Made by a program: the position numbers and the translations under genes. A DNA stretch of 64,000 nucleotides from Candidatus Nanohaloarchaea archaeon (GTDB taxonomy: Archaea > Nanohalarchaeota > Nanosalinia > Nanosalinales > Nanosalinaceae), in contig JACOQA010000001.1 in NCBI GenBank assembly GCA_014297435.1, positions 64,001 through 128,000 on the forward strand. The letters run 5' to 3'. The notes under the pieces are model-generated. The model made no database searches, was not told the DNA's origin, and saw nothing but the letters and a program-made list of their open reading frames with translations. Each line of letters opens with the position of its first letter. Position 1 is the stretch's first letter. This document shows positions 29,372-61,926 of this stretch, piece by piece.

Positions 29372-31054
29372 ATGGAACTTGAAGAACTCGCCCGCAAATA
29401 TGCCTTAAAGAATGCCTCCGAGTACGGAGGGGAATGCAACCCTGGAGCAGTAATCGGACAGATCATGAGCGAGGAAGACTTCGATCCTCAAAAGGTCCAG
29501 CAAGTTGCAGGAAAAGTATGTGGTGAAGTTAACCAGCTTTCTGTAGAAGAAATTGAAGAAGAGCTGGAAAACTACGATTATGAGGAGAAAACGCATGAAC
29601 ATGATCCAATACCTGATCTGGATGTCGATGAGGATGAAGAGGTGGTTGTGCGTTTCGCTCCGAATCCGAATGGTCCTCCCCACATAGGTCACGCCAGAGG
29701 CATGGTTATCAACGGTGAGCTTAAGCAGAAGTATGAAGGAAAGCTTATACTAAGATTTGATGACACCGATCCAAGGAACAAGAGACCTCTGAAGACCGAG
29801 AGCGCCGACGCATATAAGATGTATCAGGAGGATTACGACTGGCTTGGTTACGAGGTCGATGAGGTTCGTTATAGTTCGAAAAACTTTGACAAGTATATCG
29901 AGTACGCTGAAAAATTGATAGAGAAAGAGAAAGCCTACGTATGCTTCTGTTCTCAGGAAGAAGGCAGCAAGTACCGCAGAGAAGGAGAGGCATGTCCTCA
30001 CAGAGGTAAGTCAGTTGAGGAAAACATGGCTGACTGGGAAGAGATGAAGAACGGTGAAATAAATGAAGGAGAAGCCGTCCTCAAAGTTAAGACAGATCTT
30101 GATCACAAGAACCCAGCTGTACGAGACTTCGCAGCTTTCCGGATTATAGAGGATCCAGACCATCCAATAACTGGTGACAAATACCGTGTGTGGCCGATGC
30201 TAGATCTCGCAGGAGCATTGGAAGACCATTTCATGGGAACTACTCATATCGTACGTGGAAAAGACCTTAGAGCCTCAACAAAGAGACAGAAGTACATTTA
30301 CGACTACTTCGACTGGGAATACCCAGACATTCGTTACTGGGGTAATATTCAGATCTCCGGTTTCGACGCTCCTGTATCTGGCTCCACTCTTGGAAACATG
30401 ATTGAACAAGGAGAGCTCGATGGATGGGATGATGCACGTGCTCCAACGTTGAGAGCGTTGATGAAGAGAGGTTTCCAGCCTGAAGCAATCCAAGAATTCT
30501 TTATAGATCTTGGCGTAACGGAGAAAGATATTGAGGCTTCAGCAGAAACACTGGAATCGGAGAACAGAGATATAGTCGATGAGAAAGCAGCCAGATACTT
30601 CTTCGTAAGTGATCCTATCGAATTAACAATTGAGGATGTCCCAAACGATGTACAACCGGAAATGCAGGTACATCCAGACTTCCCCGAAAGAGGCACCAGA
30701 AAACCTGAGATAGAGAGGCAGGGCAAGGAGATCAAGTTACTGGTCGAAAAGAATGATCTTGAGGAGGGATTTCTCAGGTTGAAAGGTCTCTGTAACTTAG
30801 AAATAACTGATGTTGAGAAAGGCAGGGCAGTATACCGTGAAGGAGACCACAAACTAGCTCTTGAAAAAGAAGCGGATATAGTTCACTGGTGTCCTAGAGA
30901 TTCTGAAGAAGCAAAAGTATCTATGCCTAATGGTTCTATCGTTGAAGGTGTTTTAGAGCCCTCGAATATCGACAACGGCGAGGTAGTACAATTCGAGAGG
31001 TTTGGATTCGTTCGGCGTGAGCGAAATTCGGAGTTCTACTTCGCTCACCAATAA
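29372..31054 (+). CDS. gltX: Glutamate--tRNA ligase (archaeal, likely non-discriminating)
   Basis: RFAPNPNGPPHIGH, LRFDDTDP, THIVRGKD, QFERFGF. Confidence 0.96.
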   Translation: MELEELARKYALKNASEYGGECNPGAVIGQIMSEEDFDPQKVQQVAGKVCGEVNQLSVEEIEEELENYDYEEKTHEHDPIPDLDVDEDEEVVVRFAPNPNGPPHIGHARGMVINGELKQKYEGKLILRFDDTDPRNKRPLKTESADAYKMYQEDYDWLGYEVDEVRYSSKNFDKYIEYAEKLIEKEKAYVCFCSQEEGSKYRREGEACPHRGKSVEENMADWEEMKNGEINEGEAVLKVKTDLDHKNPAVRDFAAFRIIEDPDHPITGDKYRVWPMLDLAGALEDHFMGTTHIVRGKDLRASTKRQKYIYDYFDWEYPDIRYWGNIQISGFDAPVSGSTLGNMIEQGELDGWDDARAPTLRALMKRGFQPEAIQEFFIDLGVTEKDIEASAETLESENRDIVDEKAARYFFVSDPIELTIEDVPNDVQPEMQVHPDFPERGTRKPEIERQGKEIKLLVEKNDLEEGFLRLKGLCNLEITDVEKGRAVYREGDHKLALEKEADIVHWCPRDSEEAKVSMPNGSIVEGVLEPSNIDNGEVVQFERFGFVRRERNSEFYFAHQ

Positions 31055-31151
31055 CCTTCTACATTACCCCATAATTGGGTTTTCTTTCAATTGTCTGTTT
31101 GTATCAGTATTTAAGTGGTGGCGCGGTCAGTGTAATCCCCGGTGAGCGCCC

Positions 31152-31313
31152 ATGAAGCCCGAGAACACGGAGAAGAGCAGATCAAGATCGATCGCTAGAA
31201 AAGCAGAAAAGCTAGGTCGTGACGTTATAACCGGTGAAAGAATCTTTACAAACGATTCATATGTTAAGACCAATGAGGGGTACTGTCTAAGAAAGAATCT
31301 TTCCGGTATTTAG
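31152..31313 (+). CDS. Small hypothetical protein (53 aa, absent from the ORF track)
   Basis: MKPENTEKSRSRSIARKAEKLGRDVITGE...; GGTGA SD at 31141, TTTAAG upstream, pyrimidine tract after the stop. Confidence 0.5.
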   Translation: MKPENTEKSRSRSIARKAEKLGRDVITGERIFTNDSYVKTNEGYCLRKNLSGI

Positions 31314-31394
31314 ACCCTTCAAACACATCCTCCTTCATTTCTTCAACCCTTCATAAGCCAATTGAAACAATCTTTATCTTACAGAAGGAGGGTT

Positions 31395-31548
31395 TGGGAA
31401 TGCCGGGGTTCGAACCCGGGACCTCTGCGTATCTCACACTTCTGGAAACCTGTTTAATCATTGGAAGACCGGCTATCCAGAATCGCCGGAACTCCTCATC
31501 GCTCATAGATGTTATGAGCGCAGCGCTCTACCACTGAGCCACATTCCC
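31395..31548 (-). tRNA. tRNA-Met(CAU), probably elongator, with 82-nt intron (31431-31512) at 37/38
   Basis: Cloverleaf GGGAATG/CATTCCC-A, anticodon arm CTGCG-CTCATA^A-CGCAG, BHB CTCA/TGAG with TA^A and AT^A bulges, T-loop GGTTCGAACCC. Confidence 0.93.
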
Positions 31549-31596
31549 TCGTAAATATAGGATGACACTAAACCTTTTTTAATTCCAACAGAACTT

Positions 31597-31908
31597 CTAG
31601 AGGTCTTTAGCCTGCCTGTAAATATCCCAGTTAATATTGCTTAGATCAGACTTCTCGTACTCTGTCATGACGCCACATTCTTCGCAACCGACGTAGTCTG
31701 GTGGTTCTTCAGGGTTATCTTCTTTCGACTCCCAGACAAGCACAACGGGATAATCTTCACTCGCCCATTCACATTTGTAGTGAGAAACCGGTCTGTCAAG
31801 AACCAGTTTGTCTATCTTATTCCACGTTTCAATTGATTCTTCTTCCTCTTCCAGAATCCGAGTTGCGATTCCGTGTTCTTCAGAACCTCGCAGATTTTCG
31901 GTAGACAT
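31597..31908 (-). CDS. Hypothetical protein with CxxCG motif
   Basis: Acidic ORF between two tRNA genes; start moved to MSTENL. Confidence 0.6.
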   Translation of the reverse strand: MSTENLRGSEEHGIATRILEEEEESIETWNKIDKLVLDRPVSHYKCEWASEDYPVVLVWESKEDNPEEPPDYVGCEECGVMTEYEKSDLSNINWDIYRQAKDL

Positions 31909-31948
31909 TACTAAACAAATGGAGAACAAACTATATTATGGTGGCGAG

Positions 31949-32022
31949 TGGGTTCGCCCGGATTCGAACCGGGGATCTCCGCCATGTCAAGGCGGTGTCA
32001 TAACCAACTAGACCACGAACCC
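31949..32022 (-). tRNA. tRNA-Val(GAC)
   Basis: GGGTTCG/CGAACCC-A acceptor, CCGCC-TTGACAT-GGCGG, GGTTCGAATCC. Confidence 0.96.
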
Positions 32023-32138
32023 TCTATATTTTCGGTACTTAACTTACTTTTTTGTACCTTGTAGTACCTATGTTTCCGGATGGTCAGGTTACGCTTAAAT
32101 AACTCGGAGAATACAAGTACATAGAGTGCGTGGGGAAA

Positions 32139-32288
32139 ATGGTAAAATGCGACAACTGTGAACGAGACCTGAACGTTGATCCCGTGGACAAACCAGAAGT
32201 CGACTGGGTAAAAGTAGTATGCAGCGAATGCGGAGAAGTCAAAGACATCTCCATGATTAGATTATCTGCCACCACCTCACGGAAGTAG
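32139..32288 (+). CDS. Small zinc-finger protein (49 aa, absent from the ORF track)
   Basis: MVKCDNCERDLNVDPVDKPEVDWVKVVCSECGEVKDI... Confidence 0.7.
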   Translation: MVKCDNCERDLNVDPVDKPEVDWVKVVCSECGEVKDISMIRLSATTSRK

Positions 32289-32304
32289 CCCCGGCTATGG
32301 AAAA

Positions 32305-32655
32305 ATGGAAGGTTTAAAATACATTCTACGCTCAAAGAGTACTGTGGCAGATGAAAGCAGCGGATTTAGGATAATACAGTTAACGGTGAAGGCACTTTTA
32401 GTTGAAGTTATAGCTATCTTCGGTGCGGTTGCCGCTGTGTTTATGCAACTCTCATTTCTGACGGCGCAATCCCTCTCAAAAATCGTGAATATAGCTATAC
32501 CTCTAGTAATTTTGACATACGCAGCTATGTGGCATGGTTACAAGAAAGACAAAGAATACCTAAAACAGAAATACGGGAAAACGCCTTCTGCAAAGCCCAT
32601 TAAAGGGATTGGCCTATTCCTCTACTCAAGGCAAAGAGCGAAAATAGTAGAGTAG
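32305..32655 (+). CDS. Hypothetical membrane protein (start uncertain)
   Basis: Two hydrophobic segments. Confidence 0.5.
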   Translation: MEGLKYILRSKSTVADESSGFRIIQLTVKALLVEVIAIFGAVAAVFMQLSFLTAQSLSKIVNIAIPLVILTYAAMWHGYKKDKEYLKQKYGKTPSAKPIKGIGLFLYSRQRAKIVE

Positions 32656-32706
32656 TAGATGCCAGAACGGTTTTAAGCTTCTTACATCAAACTTTTCTTG
32701 GTAAAT

Positions 32707-33240
32707 ATGGTTAACAAGTGGCAGGACTACGAAACAGGTCCGGAAGCACCGGATGTAATTAACGCAGTAATCGAAAACCCTTCAGGCGAACAAAATAAAT
32801 ATGAGTATGACAAGGAAAAAGAATCCGTTGTTCTAGATAGAGTGCTTTACTCTTCGATTCAGTATCCGGGCGACTACGGTTTCATCCCGCAAGCCTATTA
32901 CGAAGACGAAGATCCGATGGACATCCTAGTCTTGACAACACATTCAACATTCCCTGGATGCGTTATCGAGGTAAGACCTGTAGGAATTCTTTACATGGAC
33001 GATGGCGGAGAGCAGGACGACAACATCATCGCCGTACCCACTGAAGACCCGAGATGGAACAACGTAACCGATCTTGACGACGTAAACGAGCACAAGAAGA
33101 AGGAGATCAAGGAGTTCTTCAAGACCTACAAGAACCTCGAACCCAAGAAAGAGGTCAAGATCGAGGGATGGGGCGGAAAAGAAGAAGCTAAGGAAGCAAT
33201 AGAAAGAAGTCAAGAACTTTACGAAGATAAGTTCGAGTAA
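32707..33240 (+). CDS. ppa: Inorganic pyrophosphatase (family I)
   Basis: NKYEYDK, LDRVLYS...YP.DYGFIP, D.DPMD. Confidence 0.96.
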   Translation: MVNKWQDYETGPEAPDVINAVIENPSGEQNKYEYDKEKESVVLDRVLYSSIQYPGDYGFIPQAYYEDEDPMDILVLTTHSTFPGCVIEVRPVGILYMDDGGEQDDNIIAVPTEDPRWNNVTDLDDVNEHKKKEIKEFFKTYKNLEPKKEVKIEGWGGKEEAKEAIERSQELYEDKFE

Positions 33241-33270
33241 AATTGAGGTGAAAGCCCTCTTCGCTTTCTA

Positions 33271-33522
33271 TTATTCTAATCTTCCTCTTATGACTTCAGT
33301 AACTTCCTCCAGATCATAGATTAGGGCTCTCTCTACACTAATATTTCCGTTAAGCTTCCTGACCTCATCAACGTAAAAATTATCCTCGTTCTCGAAAATA
33401 ACATACTTGTGTTTTACAGCGCTCAAACTAGGATTATCTCCCTCCCAGTATTTCTCAAAGACTTCATCAGCCAGTTCATCTTCAAGGTCTGAGTAGTATT
33501 CAAGTCTAGAGTGTGCTGCCAC
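33271..33522 (-). CDS. Small hypothetical protein
   Basis: Acidic 83-aa ORF after the ABC operon. Confidence 0.5.
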   Translation of the reverse strand: MAAHSRLEYYSDLEDELADEVFEKYWEGDNPSLSAVKHKYVIFENEDNFYVDEVRKLNGNISVERALIYDLEEVTEVIRGRLE

Positions 33523-52095: not shown

Positions 52096-52470
52096 ATGGC
52101 ATACCAGAAATTTGAACCATCGGATACTCTAGCAGAACAAACCTACAACGCAATCGAAAAAGCTGACGACTCAGGGAAGGTCGTTGTCGGAACCAACGAA
52201 GTAACAAAGGCTATTGAAAGAAATGAAGCTGAGCTTGTTGTTATCGCAAACGATGTTTCTCCTGAAGAGATCGTTATGCATCTTCCTGCACTTGCAGACG
52301 AGAAAGACACAGCATTCACTTTCGTACCTGAGAAAGAAGAGCTTGGTCTTGCTGCAGGAATCGGTGTACAGTCGGCAGCTATCGCAGTCACTTCTGTCGG
52401 ACAGGCAGAGGACGAGATTGACGACGTAAAGCTAAAATCCCGTGAACTGCTTGAAAAAGACGAGGAATAA
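52096..52470 (+). CDS. rpl7ae: 50S ribosomal protein L7Ae
   Basis: GTNEVTKAIER, LVVIA.DVSPEEIV.HLP, ELG.AAG. Confidence 0.96.
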   Translation: MAYQKFEPSDTLAEQTYNAIEKADDSGKVVVGTNEVTKAIERNEAELVVIANDVSPEEIVMHLPALADEKDTAFTFVPEKEELGLAAGIGVQSAAIAVTSVGQAEDEIDDVKLKSRELLEKDEE

Positions 52471-61775: not shown

Positions 61776-61926
61776 TGCTCCACCCGGGATTCGAACCCGG
61801 GACCGCCGCCTAACTTAAGACTCCAGCCGAGCTGGTAATCTAGGCAACGCACAGGCTTTCTCAAGCAACTGTTTTCTGTGCGAGGTCCGTATAAGGACGG
61901 TGCTCTAACCCCTGAGCTAGTGGAGC
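61776..61926 (-). tRNA. tRNA-Ile(UAU) with 78-nt intron (61812-61889) at 37/38
   Basis: GCTCCAC/GTGGAGC-A, CCGTC-CTTATA^A-GGCGG, BHB CTTA/TAAG with TA^C and TT^A bulges. Confidence 0.9.

What the first reader, a model, noticed from the sequence alone, without database searches (positions are those of the whole stretch)
31431..31520. tRNA-Met(CAU) intron encodes a box C/D guide aimed at its own wobble C34
Seen: the intron reads ACATC-TATGAGCG-ATGA-[GGAG..CCGGC..GCCGG..TTCC hairpin]-A-ATGATTA-AACAGGTTTC-CAGA-AGTGTGAGAT. TATGAGCG is the exact reverse complement of tRNA positions 30-37 (CGCTCATA), and its fifth nucleotide upstream of the D-like box ATGA pairs with C34. The boxes covary: the consensus G-C pair (RUGAUGA/CUGA) becomes U-A (AUGAUUA/AUGA), which preserves the K-turn. 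Established: the D+5 rule, and the Haloferax volcanii tRNA-Trp intron acting as a C/D guide for Cm34; in that organism Cm34 of elongator Met is guided by a separate sRNA. Inference: this intron is a self-guide. It has no C box upstream of the guide in the linear RNA, so it may be a circularly permuted sRNA completed only when the excised intron circularises, with GTGAGAT as a weak second C box. A second guide (complement GAAACCTGTT) has no identified target.
Basis: partly seen in the sequence, partly recalled or inferred. Interest (0 to 1): 0.85.

Follow-up and report, generated by a model that had tools for sequence, protein, structure and literature searches.

The report
tRNA-Met intron carries its own methylation guide
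The intron of this nanohaloarchaeal methionine tRNA gene holds a one-kink-turn guide RNA placed to direct ribose methylation of the tRNA's own wobble cytidine, a job that other archaea are reported to give to a separate small RNA.

Summary
An elongator tRNA-Met(CAU) gene lies on the minus strand (window 31395-31548) with an 82-nt intron at 37/38 (31431-31512). The intron reads: 5-nt spacer, UAUGAGCG (perfect complement of tRNA 30-37), AUGA, a flush hairpin, a 3-nt bulge, GAUUA. That is a kink-turn with a guide upstream of its D-type box, and the fifth guide nucleotide pairs with C34.

The module is found across the phylum: 48 of 70 Nanohaloarchaeota genomes carry the pattern, and all 28 full-length pre-tRNA-Met genes recovered by BLAST carry the module. 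The tRNA-Trp intron of the same genome has the same design. The genome encodes L7Ae, Nop5 and fibrillarin, has no other candidate guide for Met C34, and lacks TiaS, so the tRNA is Met and not Ile2.

GUGAGAU is the bulge-helix-bulge splicing strand. CAGA belongs to a loop-tail pseudoknot that is swapped compensatorily in one relative. The "second guide" is not conserved, and the spacing that a circular form would need varies from 13 to 45 nt.

Best reading: a one-K-turn box C/D guide for Cm34, a permuted half of the four-box tRNA-Trp intron. This is a new variant of a known kind. Methylation itself is untested.

The parts
31395..31548 (-). Elongator tRNA-Met(CAU) gene with intron. Exon 1 is 31513-31548, exon 2 is 31395-31430.
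   Evidence: Rfam tRNA model 59.2 bits. ARAGORN with introns calls Met(cat) i(37,82). G1:C72 and anticodon stem CUGCG/CGCAG, unlike the initiator at C9:98292.
31513..31520 (-). Target stretch, tRNA positions 30-37 (CGCUCAUA). C34 is at 31516.
   Evidence: Read. Pairs with the guide in the MFE fold.
31431..31512 (-). 82-nt intron at the canonical 37/38 position.
   Evidence: length 82. Homologous introns of 42-292 nt in relatives.
31500..31507 (-). Guide UAUGAGCG. Its fifth nucleotide upstream of AUGA (G at 31504) pairs with C34.
   Evidence: Core UAUGAGC, UGUGAGC or UGUGAGU in 47 of 47 unique introns, the changes keeping G.U pairs.
31496..31499 (-). D-type box AUGA.
   Evidence: AUGA in 35 and CUGA in 12 of 47 unique introns, always directly followed by the flush stem.
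31463..31495 (-). Hairpin forming the canonical (C) stem of the K-turn, GGAG...CUUCC, with an inner CCGGC/GCCGG stem.
   Evidence: Stem position 1 is G:C or G:U in 47 of 47. Position 2 is paired in 47 of 47 with 5 pair types, position 3 in 46 of 47, position 4 in 40 of 47.
31476..31482 (-). Hairpin-loop strand UUCUGGA of a loop-tail pseudoknot.
   Evidence: Pairs with UCCAGAA over 7 bp. Seen in 13 of 47 unique introns. Strands swapped in L008/L052, and extended on different sides in L009 and L010.
31455..31462 (-). C-type box with its bulge: AAU (3-nt bulge) + GAUUA.
   Evidence: Bulge GAU in 42, AAU in 4, UAU in 1 of 47. GAUU pairs only with AUGA, GAUC only with CUGA. This part was not in the pattern used to collect the loci.
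31440..31446 (-). Tail strand UCCAGAA of the pseudoknot.
31433..31436 (-). UGAG, the intron strand of the central 4-bp helix of the bulge-helix-bulge splicing motif.
   Evidence: 41 of 47 unique introns pair 4 of 4 here. A constrained cloverleaf+BHB fold gives -51.5 kcal/mol against -56.8 for the guide conformer.
52138..52413 (+). L7Ae gene, the K-turn-binding protein, in the same window.
   Evidence: PF01248, 89.7 bits, at G000:C1:116138-116413.

Best explanation
The intron of the elongator tRNA-Met gene is a box C/D-type methylation guide reduced to one kink-turn.

Proposed mechanism:
1. AUGA (D-type) and AAU-GAUUA (C-type), joined by a flush hairpin, form a K-turn that L7Ae should bind. Nop5 and fibrillarin then assemble on it.
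2. The 8 nucleotides upstream of AUGA pair with tRNA positions 30-37, which places C34 at the fifth pair from the box, where fibrillarin methylates the 2'-OH (Cm34).
3. This pairing excludes the bulge-helix-bulge fold, in which 32-35 pair with UGAG near the intron 3' end. Methylation and splicing therefore use alternative conformers, and methylation most likely comes first. Because the guide pairs with exon nucleotides only, the excised intron could also act in trans.

What is shown: the sequence anatomy, its conservation and covariation across the phylum, the same design in tRNA-Trp, and the presence of the three protein genes.

What is inferred: L7Ae binding, methylation of C34, the order of events, and how a single K-turn gives site specificity (possibly two such RNAs on one Nop5 dimer, or help from the pseudoknot).
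For: 1. Anatomy and register read. Chance of the guide in register is 145 of 300000 shuffles.

2. Conservation not imposed by the search.
- BLAST with the whole pre-tRNA against 41 genomes of the order gave 25 full-length pre-tRNA-Met plus 3 fetched later. All 28 carry guide, D-type box, flush hairpin, bulge and C-type box.
- A pattern holding only exon, guide and D-type box hit 51 places in 185,579 species genomes. Of these, 42 are tRNA-Met genes in nanohaloarchaeal-type records and all 42 also have the hairpin and C-type box; 9 are non-tRNA chance hits.
- In the phylum, 48 of 70 genomes have exactly one match, against 1 hit for the reversed-pattern control. Among high-quality genomes it is 25 of 28.

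3. Covariation: C-stem pairs and box coupling, as listed under the parts.

4. Same design in other tRNAs.
- The own tRNA-Trp intron reads UUCUGGAGG-G-AUGA-GG[loop]CC-AAU-GAUUA, with N+5 = C34.
- 20 of 22 relatives' Trp loci match this design, 1 is a CCGA/GAUGAC variant and 1 shows none.
- In genome G028 the introns of tRNA-Lys(UUU) and tRNA-Leu(UAA) carry analogous modules with N+5 = U34.

5. Machinery: fibrillarin, Nop5 and L7Ae genes are present. Two four-box C/D sRNAs in the same genome also use a flush hairpin between D' and C'.

6. No rival guide: of 35 places in the genome with [AG]UGAG[CU]N followed by NUGA, only the intron has a K-turn partner, and none has a C box in the 25 nt upstream.

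7. Four-box tRNA-Trp introns of other archaea place the C34 guide directly upstream of the terminal D box in the same register. One (L154) uses AAUGAUUA/AUGA as its terminal boxes.

8. Cm34 of archaeal elongator tRNA-Met is an established guide-dependent modification (passages of PMC2584109; PMC4033218).
Against: - No second box pair (C'/D') is conserved. In the M. jannaschii system a single-site complex was active but lost site specificity, and both motifs were needed for specificity (abstract of PMC1635284).
- The boxes deviate from consensus (AUGAUUA/AUGA). Sister lineages have a C.C opposition at the coupled position.
- No Rfam C/D family matches the region at E<=1.
- The guide duplex is only 8 bp and, in cis, is closed by a 5-nt loop.
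- The Nop5 ORF here is 249 aa. It aligns only to residues 120-376 of a solved 388-aa Nop5, so the N-terminal part has no counterpart in this ORF.
- There are no RNA or modification data. No public run holds this stretch.
- 22 of 70 genomes of the phylum lack the pattern. These include two near-complete ones, G008 and G051; in G008 I could not locate an elongator tRNA-Met.
Confidence: 0.72

Rival explanations
1. One reading: the intron is a circularly permuted four-box C/D RNA. After excision and circularisation, GUGAGAU (C') comes to lie upstream of the guide and CAGA serves as D', which completes the second K-motif.
For: - In this one sequence the spacings fit: AUGAUUA-10 nt-CAGA-AGU-GUGAGAU|13 nt-AUGA.
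- Compared with four-box tRNA-Trp introns, the module order here (guide-D-stem-C) is a circular permutation.
- tRNA introns are among known archaeal circular RNAs (passage of PMC7994747).
- In some relatives (L016/L059, L057; Trp L099) a second C-type box plus hairpin precedes GUGAG or GGAG (seen by eye).
Against: - UGAG is required for, and covaries with, the BHB helix.
- CAGA lies in a helix with the hairpin loop and is replaced by CUGG in the swapped relative L008/L052.
- CCAGAA or UUCUGG occurs in the tail of only 13 of 47 introns.
- The distance from intron start to the D-type box is 13-45 nt, not about 12.
- Trp introns with the same module end ...GGAGAU, with no room for two boxes.
Confidence: 0.08
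2. The K-turn and the anticodon-masking helix serve pre-tRNA folding, stability or splicing control. For example, L7Ae binding could hold the anticodon loop in an alternative helix until processing, with no methylation of C34.
For: - Only one K-turn is present, and single-site complexes lacked specificity in vitro.
- The guide helix and the BHB helix are mutually exclusive, with predicted energies 5.3 kcal/mol apart, -56.8 against -51.5.
- The Nop5 ORF lacks a counterpart of the N-terminal part of solved Nop5.
Against: - The register is fixed. The fifth nucleotide from the D-type box pairs with position 34 in four different tRNAs with four different guides (Met, Trp, Lys-UUU, Leu-UAA). A masking helix alone would not need this.
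- The same register occurs in four-box Trp introns of other archaea (experimental support for such introns is cited).
- The fibrillarin and Nop5 genes are retained.
Confidence: 0.12
3. An ordinary BHB intron whose complementarity to the anticodon loop and box-like words arise by chance or from the usual anticodon-intron pairing.
For: Archaeal introns at 37/38 normally pair with the anticodon loop, and UGAG near the 3' end does so here.
Against: - The guide is a second, separate complement of 30-37, seen in 145 of 300000 shuffles.
- Together with the K-turn it is conserved across the phylum with stem covariation.
Confidence: 0.02

Closest known systems
tRNA-Trp intron box C/D guide of Haloferax volcanii, Pyrococcus and other Euryarchaeota (sR50 type)
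   Same: - The guide sits in the 37/38 intron of its own target.
- It pairs with the anticodon loop so that the fifth nucleotide upstream of a D-type box meets C34.
- It competes with the BHB fold.
- It depends on L7Ae, Nop5 and fibrillarin.
Sources: literature passages; real four-box examples L154, L183, L195, L202, L208.
   Different: The known introns have four boxes and two guides (Cm34 and Um39), with the C34 guide flanked by C' upstream and the terminal D downstream. Here there is one K-turn and one guide, the terminal stem is capped by a loop so that the C-type box follows the D-type box, and the host tRNA is Met.
Trans-acting guides for Cm34 of elongator tRNA-Met: sR-tMet (haloarchaea) and sR49 (Pyrococcus)
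   Same: Same target nucleotide and the same modification logic. They act on the intron-containing precursor (PMC2584109, passage; PMC4033218).
   Different: Those are separate genes. PMC2584109 states that the Met guide is 'always exonic' and the Trp guide 'always intronic'. Here the Met guide is intronic, and no separate guide was found in the genome. The unusual C'/D' motif of sR-tMet is recalled from memory and was not checked.
Synthetic half-mer or hemi box C/D RNPs (Hardin and Batey 2006; half-mer crystal structures reviewed in PMC6239191)
   Same: One K-turn plus one guide. Such RNAs assemble with the core proteins and were crystallised, and a single-site complex was active (abstract of PMC1635284; passages of PMC6239191).
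   Different: Those are engineered, and the single-site one lost site specificity. Here the arrangement is natural, conserved across a phylum, and tethered to its substrate in cis.
Human SNORD97/SCARNA97
   Same: Box C/D guides for Cm34 of elongator tRNA-Met (search listing and start of abstract of PMC6601510).
   Different: Eukaryotic, separate genes, four-box snoRNAs.

Membership tests
Archaeal box C/D sRNA | C box (RUGAUGA) and D box (CUGA) that form a K-turn: flush stem, 3-nt bulge, tandem G.A pairs | tested here: met
   AUGA + flush hairpin + AAU bulge + GAUUA. Stem covariation and box coupling across 47 unique introns. The boxes deviate from consensus at one coupled position. Binding by L7Ae was not tested.
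Archaeal box C/D sRNA | A second, internal C'/D' motif (bipartite, four-box architecture) | tested here: not met
   No conserved second box pair. The candidate CAGA/GUGAGAU is explained by the pseudoknot and the BHB. By contrast, two four-box sRNAs exist elsewhere in the genome.
Archaeal box C/D sRNA | Guide directly upstream of D/D', complementary to a stable RNA, with the target at the fifth pair | tested here: met
   8 bp with tRNA 30-37, and N+5 = C34. Conserved register in 47 of 47. 145 of 300000 shuffles.
Archaeal box C/D sRNA | Genome encodes L7Ae, Nop5 and fibrillarin | tested here: met
   (227.9, 178 and 89.7 bits). Caveat: Nop5 is 249 aa and aligns only to residues 120-376 of 3id5_A.
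Archaeal box C/D sRNA | 2'-O-methylation of the predicted nucleotide | not testable with these tools
   No RNA or modification data. No run holds the stretch.
Archaeal box C/D sRNA | Match to a curated Rfam C/D family | tested here: not met
   cmscan of 30000-33500 at E<=1 returned only two tRNA matches.
tRNA-Trp-type intron dual guide (Cm34 + Um39) | Two guides in one intron aimed at positions 34 and 39 of the host tRNA | tested here: not met
   Only the C34 guide is conserved. The stretch after the C-type box varies.
Archaeal BHB (hBHBh') tRNA intron | Two 3-nt bulges separated by a 4-bp helix, with the splice sites in the bulges, at 37/38 | tested here: met
   CUCA(32-35):UGAG, with bulges UA|A and AU|A (read). 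41 of 47 relatives keep 4 of 4 pairs. The constrained fold is feasible at -51.5 kcal/mol. The splicing endonuclease gene was not searched.
tRNA-Ile2 (CAU, agmatidine) | TiaS present and a third CAU tRNA besides initiator and elongator Met | tested here: not met
   No TiaS_FLD match in a 99%-complete genome, while the 4 archaeal controls all ring. Only two CAU tRNAs were found. A tRNA-Ile(UAU) gene is present.

The most novel reading that the evidence does not exclude
Nanohaloarchaeota carry out wobble-ribose methylation with natural one-K-turn ('hemi') C/D guides built into the intron of the very tRNA they modify. This holds for Trp and Met throughout the phylum, and for Lys-UUU and Leu-UAA in at least one lineage. 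The module is a permuted half of the classical four-box tRNA-Trp intron. If it is active and site-specific, then a single K-turn tethered in cis to its substrate, or two pre-tRNAs sharing one Nop5 dimer, is enough for accurate C/D-guided methylation. In vitro work with free RNAs suggested otherwise.
Probability: 0.4. Interest if true: 0.75.

Novelty: new variant of a known kind. Interest (0 to 1): 0.62.

Why it matters
A 2008 survey of archaeal tRNA guides stated that the Cm34 guide is always intronic for tRNA-Trp and always a separate gene for tRNA-Met (PMC2584109). This locus, and the phylum around it, is an exception to that statement.

More interesting for the mechanism, the guides here have one K-turn and one guide only, although the same genome also makes ordinary four-box sRNAs. 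That gives a natural test case for a long-running question: why do C/D RNPs need a bipartite RNA for specificity?

It also adds to tRNA decoding in reduced DPANN genomes. There is no TiaS, AUA appears to be read by tRNA-Ile(UAU), and Cm34 on tRNA-Met is the modification generally thought to sharpen AUG reading (recalled).

Tried and rejected
- Rfam scan of the region at E<=1: only tRNA matches.
- Second-guide target. GAAACCTGTT has 8 exact places in the genome, one of them the complement of the intron's own tail, and 237 places in total when one mismatch is allowed. None was followed further, because the stretch is not conserved in relatives. The assembly holds no 16S rRNA, so rRNA targets could not be checked.
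- A loose genome-wide scan for D-type box + flush stem + C-type box gave 238 hits, mostly chance, so it was useless as a background estimate. It did lead to the two four-box sRNAs.
- RNA evidence. The look-up of sequencing runs found no run holding more than 0.07 of the sampled words. Read laying was therefore not used, and nothing can be said on expression, circular junctions or habitat.
- The MAFFT alignment of 13 pre-tRNA cores misaligned the pseudoknot strands. I did not run the count of structure pairs on it and counted pairs per sequence in scripts instead. In one search the per-sequence shuffle controls for the pseudoknot are weak (for the own intron, 50 of 200 shuffles reach 7 bp). The case for it rests on the conserved placement, the strand swap in L008/L052 and the differently extended helices in L009 and L010.
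I looked at 10 archaeal-labelled loci only, and 5 were tRNA-Trp introns.
- G008, a complete genome of the same family with no BLAST or pattern hit: none of its 7 tRNA matches longer than 100 nt is Met. Its elongator tRNA-Met was not located.
- Pfam NOP5NT search for a separate Nop5 N-terminal domain: no hit, but the controls stayed below the cut-off, so it is uninformative.
- Reading GCGAUGA as a C box was rejected, because sister lineages have CUGA at that place.
- Literature searches for a prior description listed none among the results shown (18 listed of 19 matching papers, 25 of 508, 15 of 630 and 20 of 96). Supplements are closed, and Additional files 3-5 of PMC2584109 could bear on the Met intron. 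PMC92551 and PMC275556 are not held.

Full report
WHAT IS THERE. The finding lies on the minus strand. Rfam's tRNA model matches window 31548..31395 at 59.2 bits with an 84-nt insertion in the anticodon loop. ARAGORN in intron mode calls tRNA-Met(cat) with an 82-nt intron, while its default mode misses the gene. Exon 1 is 31548-31513, the intron 31512-31431 and exon 2 31430-31395. The intron reads ACAUC / UAUGAGCG / AUGA / GGAGUUCCGGCGAUUCUGGAUAGCCGGUCUUCC / AAU / GAUUA / AACAGGUUUCCAGAAGUGUGAGAU. UAUGAGCG is the exact complement of tRNA 30-37, and the fifth nucleotide upstream of AUGA pairs with C34. This 8-bp helix is part of the minimum-free-energy fold. In 300000 shuffles of the intron, a guide of at least 7 bp in that register beside [AC]UGA arose 145 times, and 12 times with Watson-Crick pairs only.

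WHICH tRNA. The genome is 1.0 Mb in 15 contigs, 44% G+C and 99% complete. It has two CAU tRNAs among the 38 tRNA sequences I read: this one, and an initiator with A1:U72 and a GGG/CCC anticodon stem. No TiaS domain was found, although all four archaeal control genomes ring. ARAGORN also finds an intron-bearing tRNA-Ile(UAU) in the same window. The CAU tRNA is therefore elongator Met and not Ile2.

WHAT THE BOXES ARE. AUGA is followed directly by a stem (GGAG.../...CUUCC). The other strand of that stem is followed by three unpaired nucleotides (AAU) and then GAUUA. This is the layout of a kink-turn: canonical stem, 3-nt bulge, tandem G.A pairs, a U.U pair, then U-A where consensus C/D boxes have G-C.

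Relatives were collected in two ways.
- BLAST with the whole pre-tRNA against 41 genomes of the order found matches in 35. From these I extracted 25 full-length pre-tRNA-Met genes and later 3 more. All 28 carry the module.
- A pattern holding only exon, guide and D-type box was scanned over one genome for each of 185,579 species. It hit 51 places. Nine are not tRNA genes. The other 42 are tRNA-Met genes in records labelled Nanohaloarchaeota or 'uncultured archaeon', plus two with odd bacterial labels. All 42 also show the flush hairpin, the bulge and the C-type box, none of which was part of the pattern.

Within the phylum, 48 of 70 genomes have exactly one match, against one hit for the reversed control pattern. 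Among genomes at least 90% complete it is 25 of 28.

Across 47 unique introns (42-292 nt):
- stem position 1 is G:C or G:U in 47;
- position 2 is paired in 47 with five pair types, position 3 in 46 and position 4 in 40;
- the bulge is GAU in 42, AAU in 4 and UAU in 1;
- AUGA goes only with GAUU (35 of 35) and CUGA only with GAUC (12 of 12).

One AUGA/GAUUA intron (L076) has the long inner hairpins typical of CUGA-type introns, so the coupled change probably happened more than once. In genome G039 the Trp intron has AUGA/GAUUA and the Met intron CUGA/GAUCA. The coupling therefore lies within each motif and is not a genome-wide habit.

THE SAME DESIGN ELSEWHERE. The tRNA-Trp gene of the same genome has a 55-nt intron...UUCUGGAGG-G-AUGA-GG[CAUUCAG]CC-AAU-GAUUA-..., and again the fifth nucleotide from AUGA pairs with C34. 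Of 22 relatives' Trp loci (two pairs are the same place fetched twice), 20 show this module, one has a CCGA/GAUGAC variant and one (L108) shows none. In G028, a different family, the introns of tRNA-Lys(UUU) and tRNA-Leu(UAA) carry analogous modules whose fifth guide nucleotide pairs with U34. A review notes that Pyrococcus has separate sRNAs aimed at the wobble position of Leu(CAA), Leu(UAA), Met and Trp (PMC7994747).

The machinery is present: fibrillarin, Nop5 and L7Ae genes. The genome also has two ordinary four-box sRNAs (AUGAUGA-14 nt-CUGA-flush hairpin-AUGAUGA-12/13 nt-CUGA), so the hairpin between D' and C' is a local habit. No other place in the genome combines a Met-C34 guide with a box in register and a C box or K-turn partner (35 places examined).

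WHAT THE OTHER ELEMENTS ARE.
- GUGAGAU is not a C box. Its UGAG pairs with CUCA (32-35) to make the central helix of the bulge-helix-bulge motif, flanked by the bulges UA|A and AU|A. In 41 of 47 introns all four pairs are kept, with UGGG as a frequent variant.
- CAGA is not a D box. UCCAGAA in the tail pairs with UUCUGGA in the hairpin loop. Thirteen introns have this pair at the same places. In L008/L052 the two strands have changed places, and in L009 and L010 the helix is extended on different sides.
- The 'second guide' varies freely between relatives.
- If circularisation completed a second motif, the distance from the intron start to the D-type box should be fixed near 12 nt. It ranges from 13 to 45, and this locus has the minimum, which explains why the idea looked good here.

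RELATION TO KNOWN tRNA-Trp INTRONS. Five four-box tRNA-Trp introns from other archaea show the order stem-C-guide-D'-loop-C'-guide34-D-stem, with the C34 guide in the same register. In one (L154, labelled Thermoplasmatota) the terminal boxes are AAUGAUUA and AUGA. The nanohaloarchaeal module, guide34-D-[stem closed by a loop]-C, is therefore the terminal C/D half of that architecture. It is circularly permuted at the level of the gene, and the C'/D' half and the second guide are absent.

HOW IT MOST LIKELY WORKS. L7Ae binds the K-turn and Nop5-fibrillarin assembles. The guide opens the last two pairs of the anticodon stem and pairs with 30-37, and fibrillarin methylates C34. The RNA then refolds into the BHB form and is spliced. 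The two conformers are mutually exclusive, with predicted energies of -56.8 and -51.5 kcal/mol. Because the guide pairs only with exon nucleotides, the excised intron could also act in trans.

The weak point is the single K-turn. With free RNAs a single-site complex was active but not site-specific (abstract of PMC1635284). Half-mer RNAs do assemble in pairs on Nop5 dimers in crystals (PMC6239191), so two pre-tRNAs per complex is one way out. Cis tethering and the pseudoknot are others. All of this is inference: no binding, methylation or RNA data exist for this locus.

NOVELTY. A 2008 survey stated that the Trp guide is always intronic and the Met guide always a separate gene (PMC2584109). 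Later reviews repeat sR-tMet for haloarchaea (PMC4033218) and mention only tRNA-Trp for intronic guides (PMC11408192). Four full-text searches listed no description of nanohaloarchaeal intron guides, but supplements and several older papers could not be read. I file the finding as a new variant of a known kind.

Noticed in passing
window 61776-61926 (-): ARAGORN calls an intron-bearing tRNA-Ile(UAU) with a 78-nt intron; the Rfam tRNA search did not list it. Together with the missing TiaS domain, this suggests that AUA is read by a UAU anticodon and not by agmatidine-CAU. I saw no K-turn or guide module in its intron by eye.
   Followed up: partly
own genome G000:C12:24712-24840 (+), outside the window: The 55-nt tRNA-Trp intron has the same one-K-turn module (guide UUCUGGAGG, AUGA, short hairpin, AAUGAUUA) and no four-box architecture. 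This differs from the tRNA-Trp introns of other archaea seen.
   Followed up: yes
window 31440-31446 and 31476-31482 (-): The two pseudoknot strands of the Met intron equal the core of the Trp guide (UUCUGGA) and the Trp anticodon loop plus the first intron bases (UCCAGAA). This could be a relic of descent from a Trp intron, or cross-talk between the two introns. Unexplained.
   Followed up: no
L131 and L132 (genome G028, same order): The introns of tRNA-Leu(UAA) and tRNA-Lys(UUU) carry a guide, a D-type box (UUGA / CUGA) and a C-type box (AUGAUGA / GUGAUUG). The fifth guide nucleotide pairs with U34 of the host tRNA.
   Followed up: partly
L016/L059, L057 (tRNA-Met) and L099 (tRNA-Trp); L097 (tRNA-Trp) possibly similar: Near the intron 3' end lies xUGAUCG-AACUU-CCAG-AAGUU-CGUGA(G). 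Its flanks could form tandem G.A, U.U and C-G pairs above a capped stem, giving a possible second L7Ae site. Its 3' half overlaps the BHB strand. I found no canonical stem for it, and it is absent from the window's intron.
   Followed up: partly
own genome G000:C1:201192-201941 (L002:1372-2121), outside the window: The Nop5 ORF is only 249 aa and aligns (9-249) to residues 120-376 of a solved 388-aa Nop5 (3id5_A). The N-terminal part, which binds fibrillarin in solved complexes (recalled), has no counterpart in this ORF. The fibrillarin gene follows about 300 nt downstream.
   Followed up: partly
own genome G000:C1:12613-12680 (+) and C9:202989-203050 (+), outside the window: Two four-box C/D sRNAs share an identical 14-nt first guide (GGUACUGACAUCGU) but have different second guides. 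Both have a hairpin K-turn between D' and C'. Their targets were not sought, because the assembly has no 16S rRNA.
   Followed up: no
L116, L118, L121 (G008) and L088, L092, L095, L097 (tRNA-Trp): A recurring GGUUACGCU / GUUACGCU word lies near the 5' end of introns of several different tRNAs. It may be a shared intron module. Unexplained.
   Followed up: no
window 31948-32022 (-): tRNA-Val(GAC) lies about 400 nt upstream of tRNA-Met. This Val-Met pairing is kept in most relatives, and in some (L010, L015, L020, L022) the Val gene also has an intron.
   Followed up: no
L047 and L063: Two public contigs labelled Colwellia polaris and Candidatus Magasanikbacteria carry a nanohaloarchaeal-type tRNA-Met gene with the intron module. 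The labels look like binning or naming errors.
   Followed up: no
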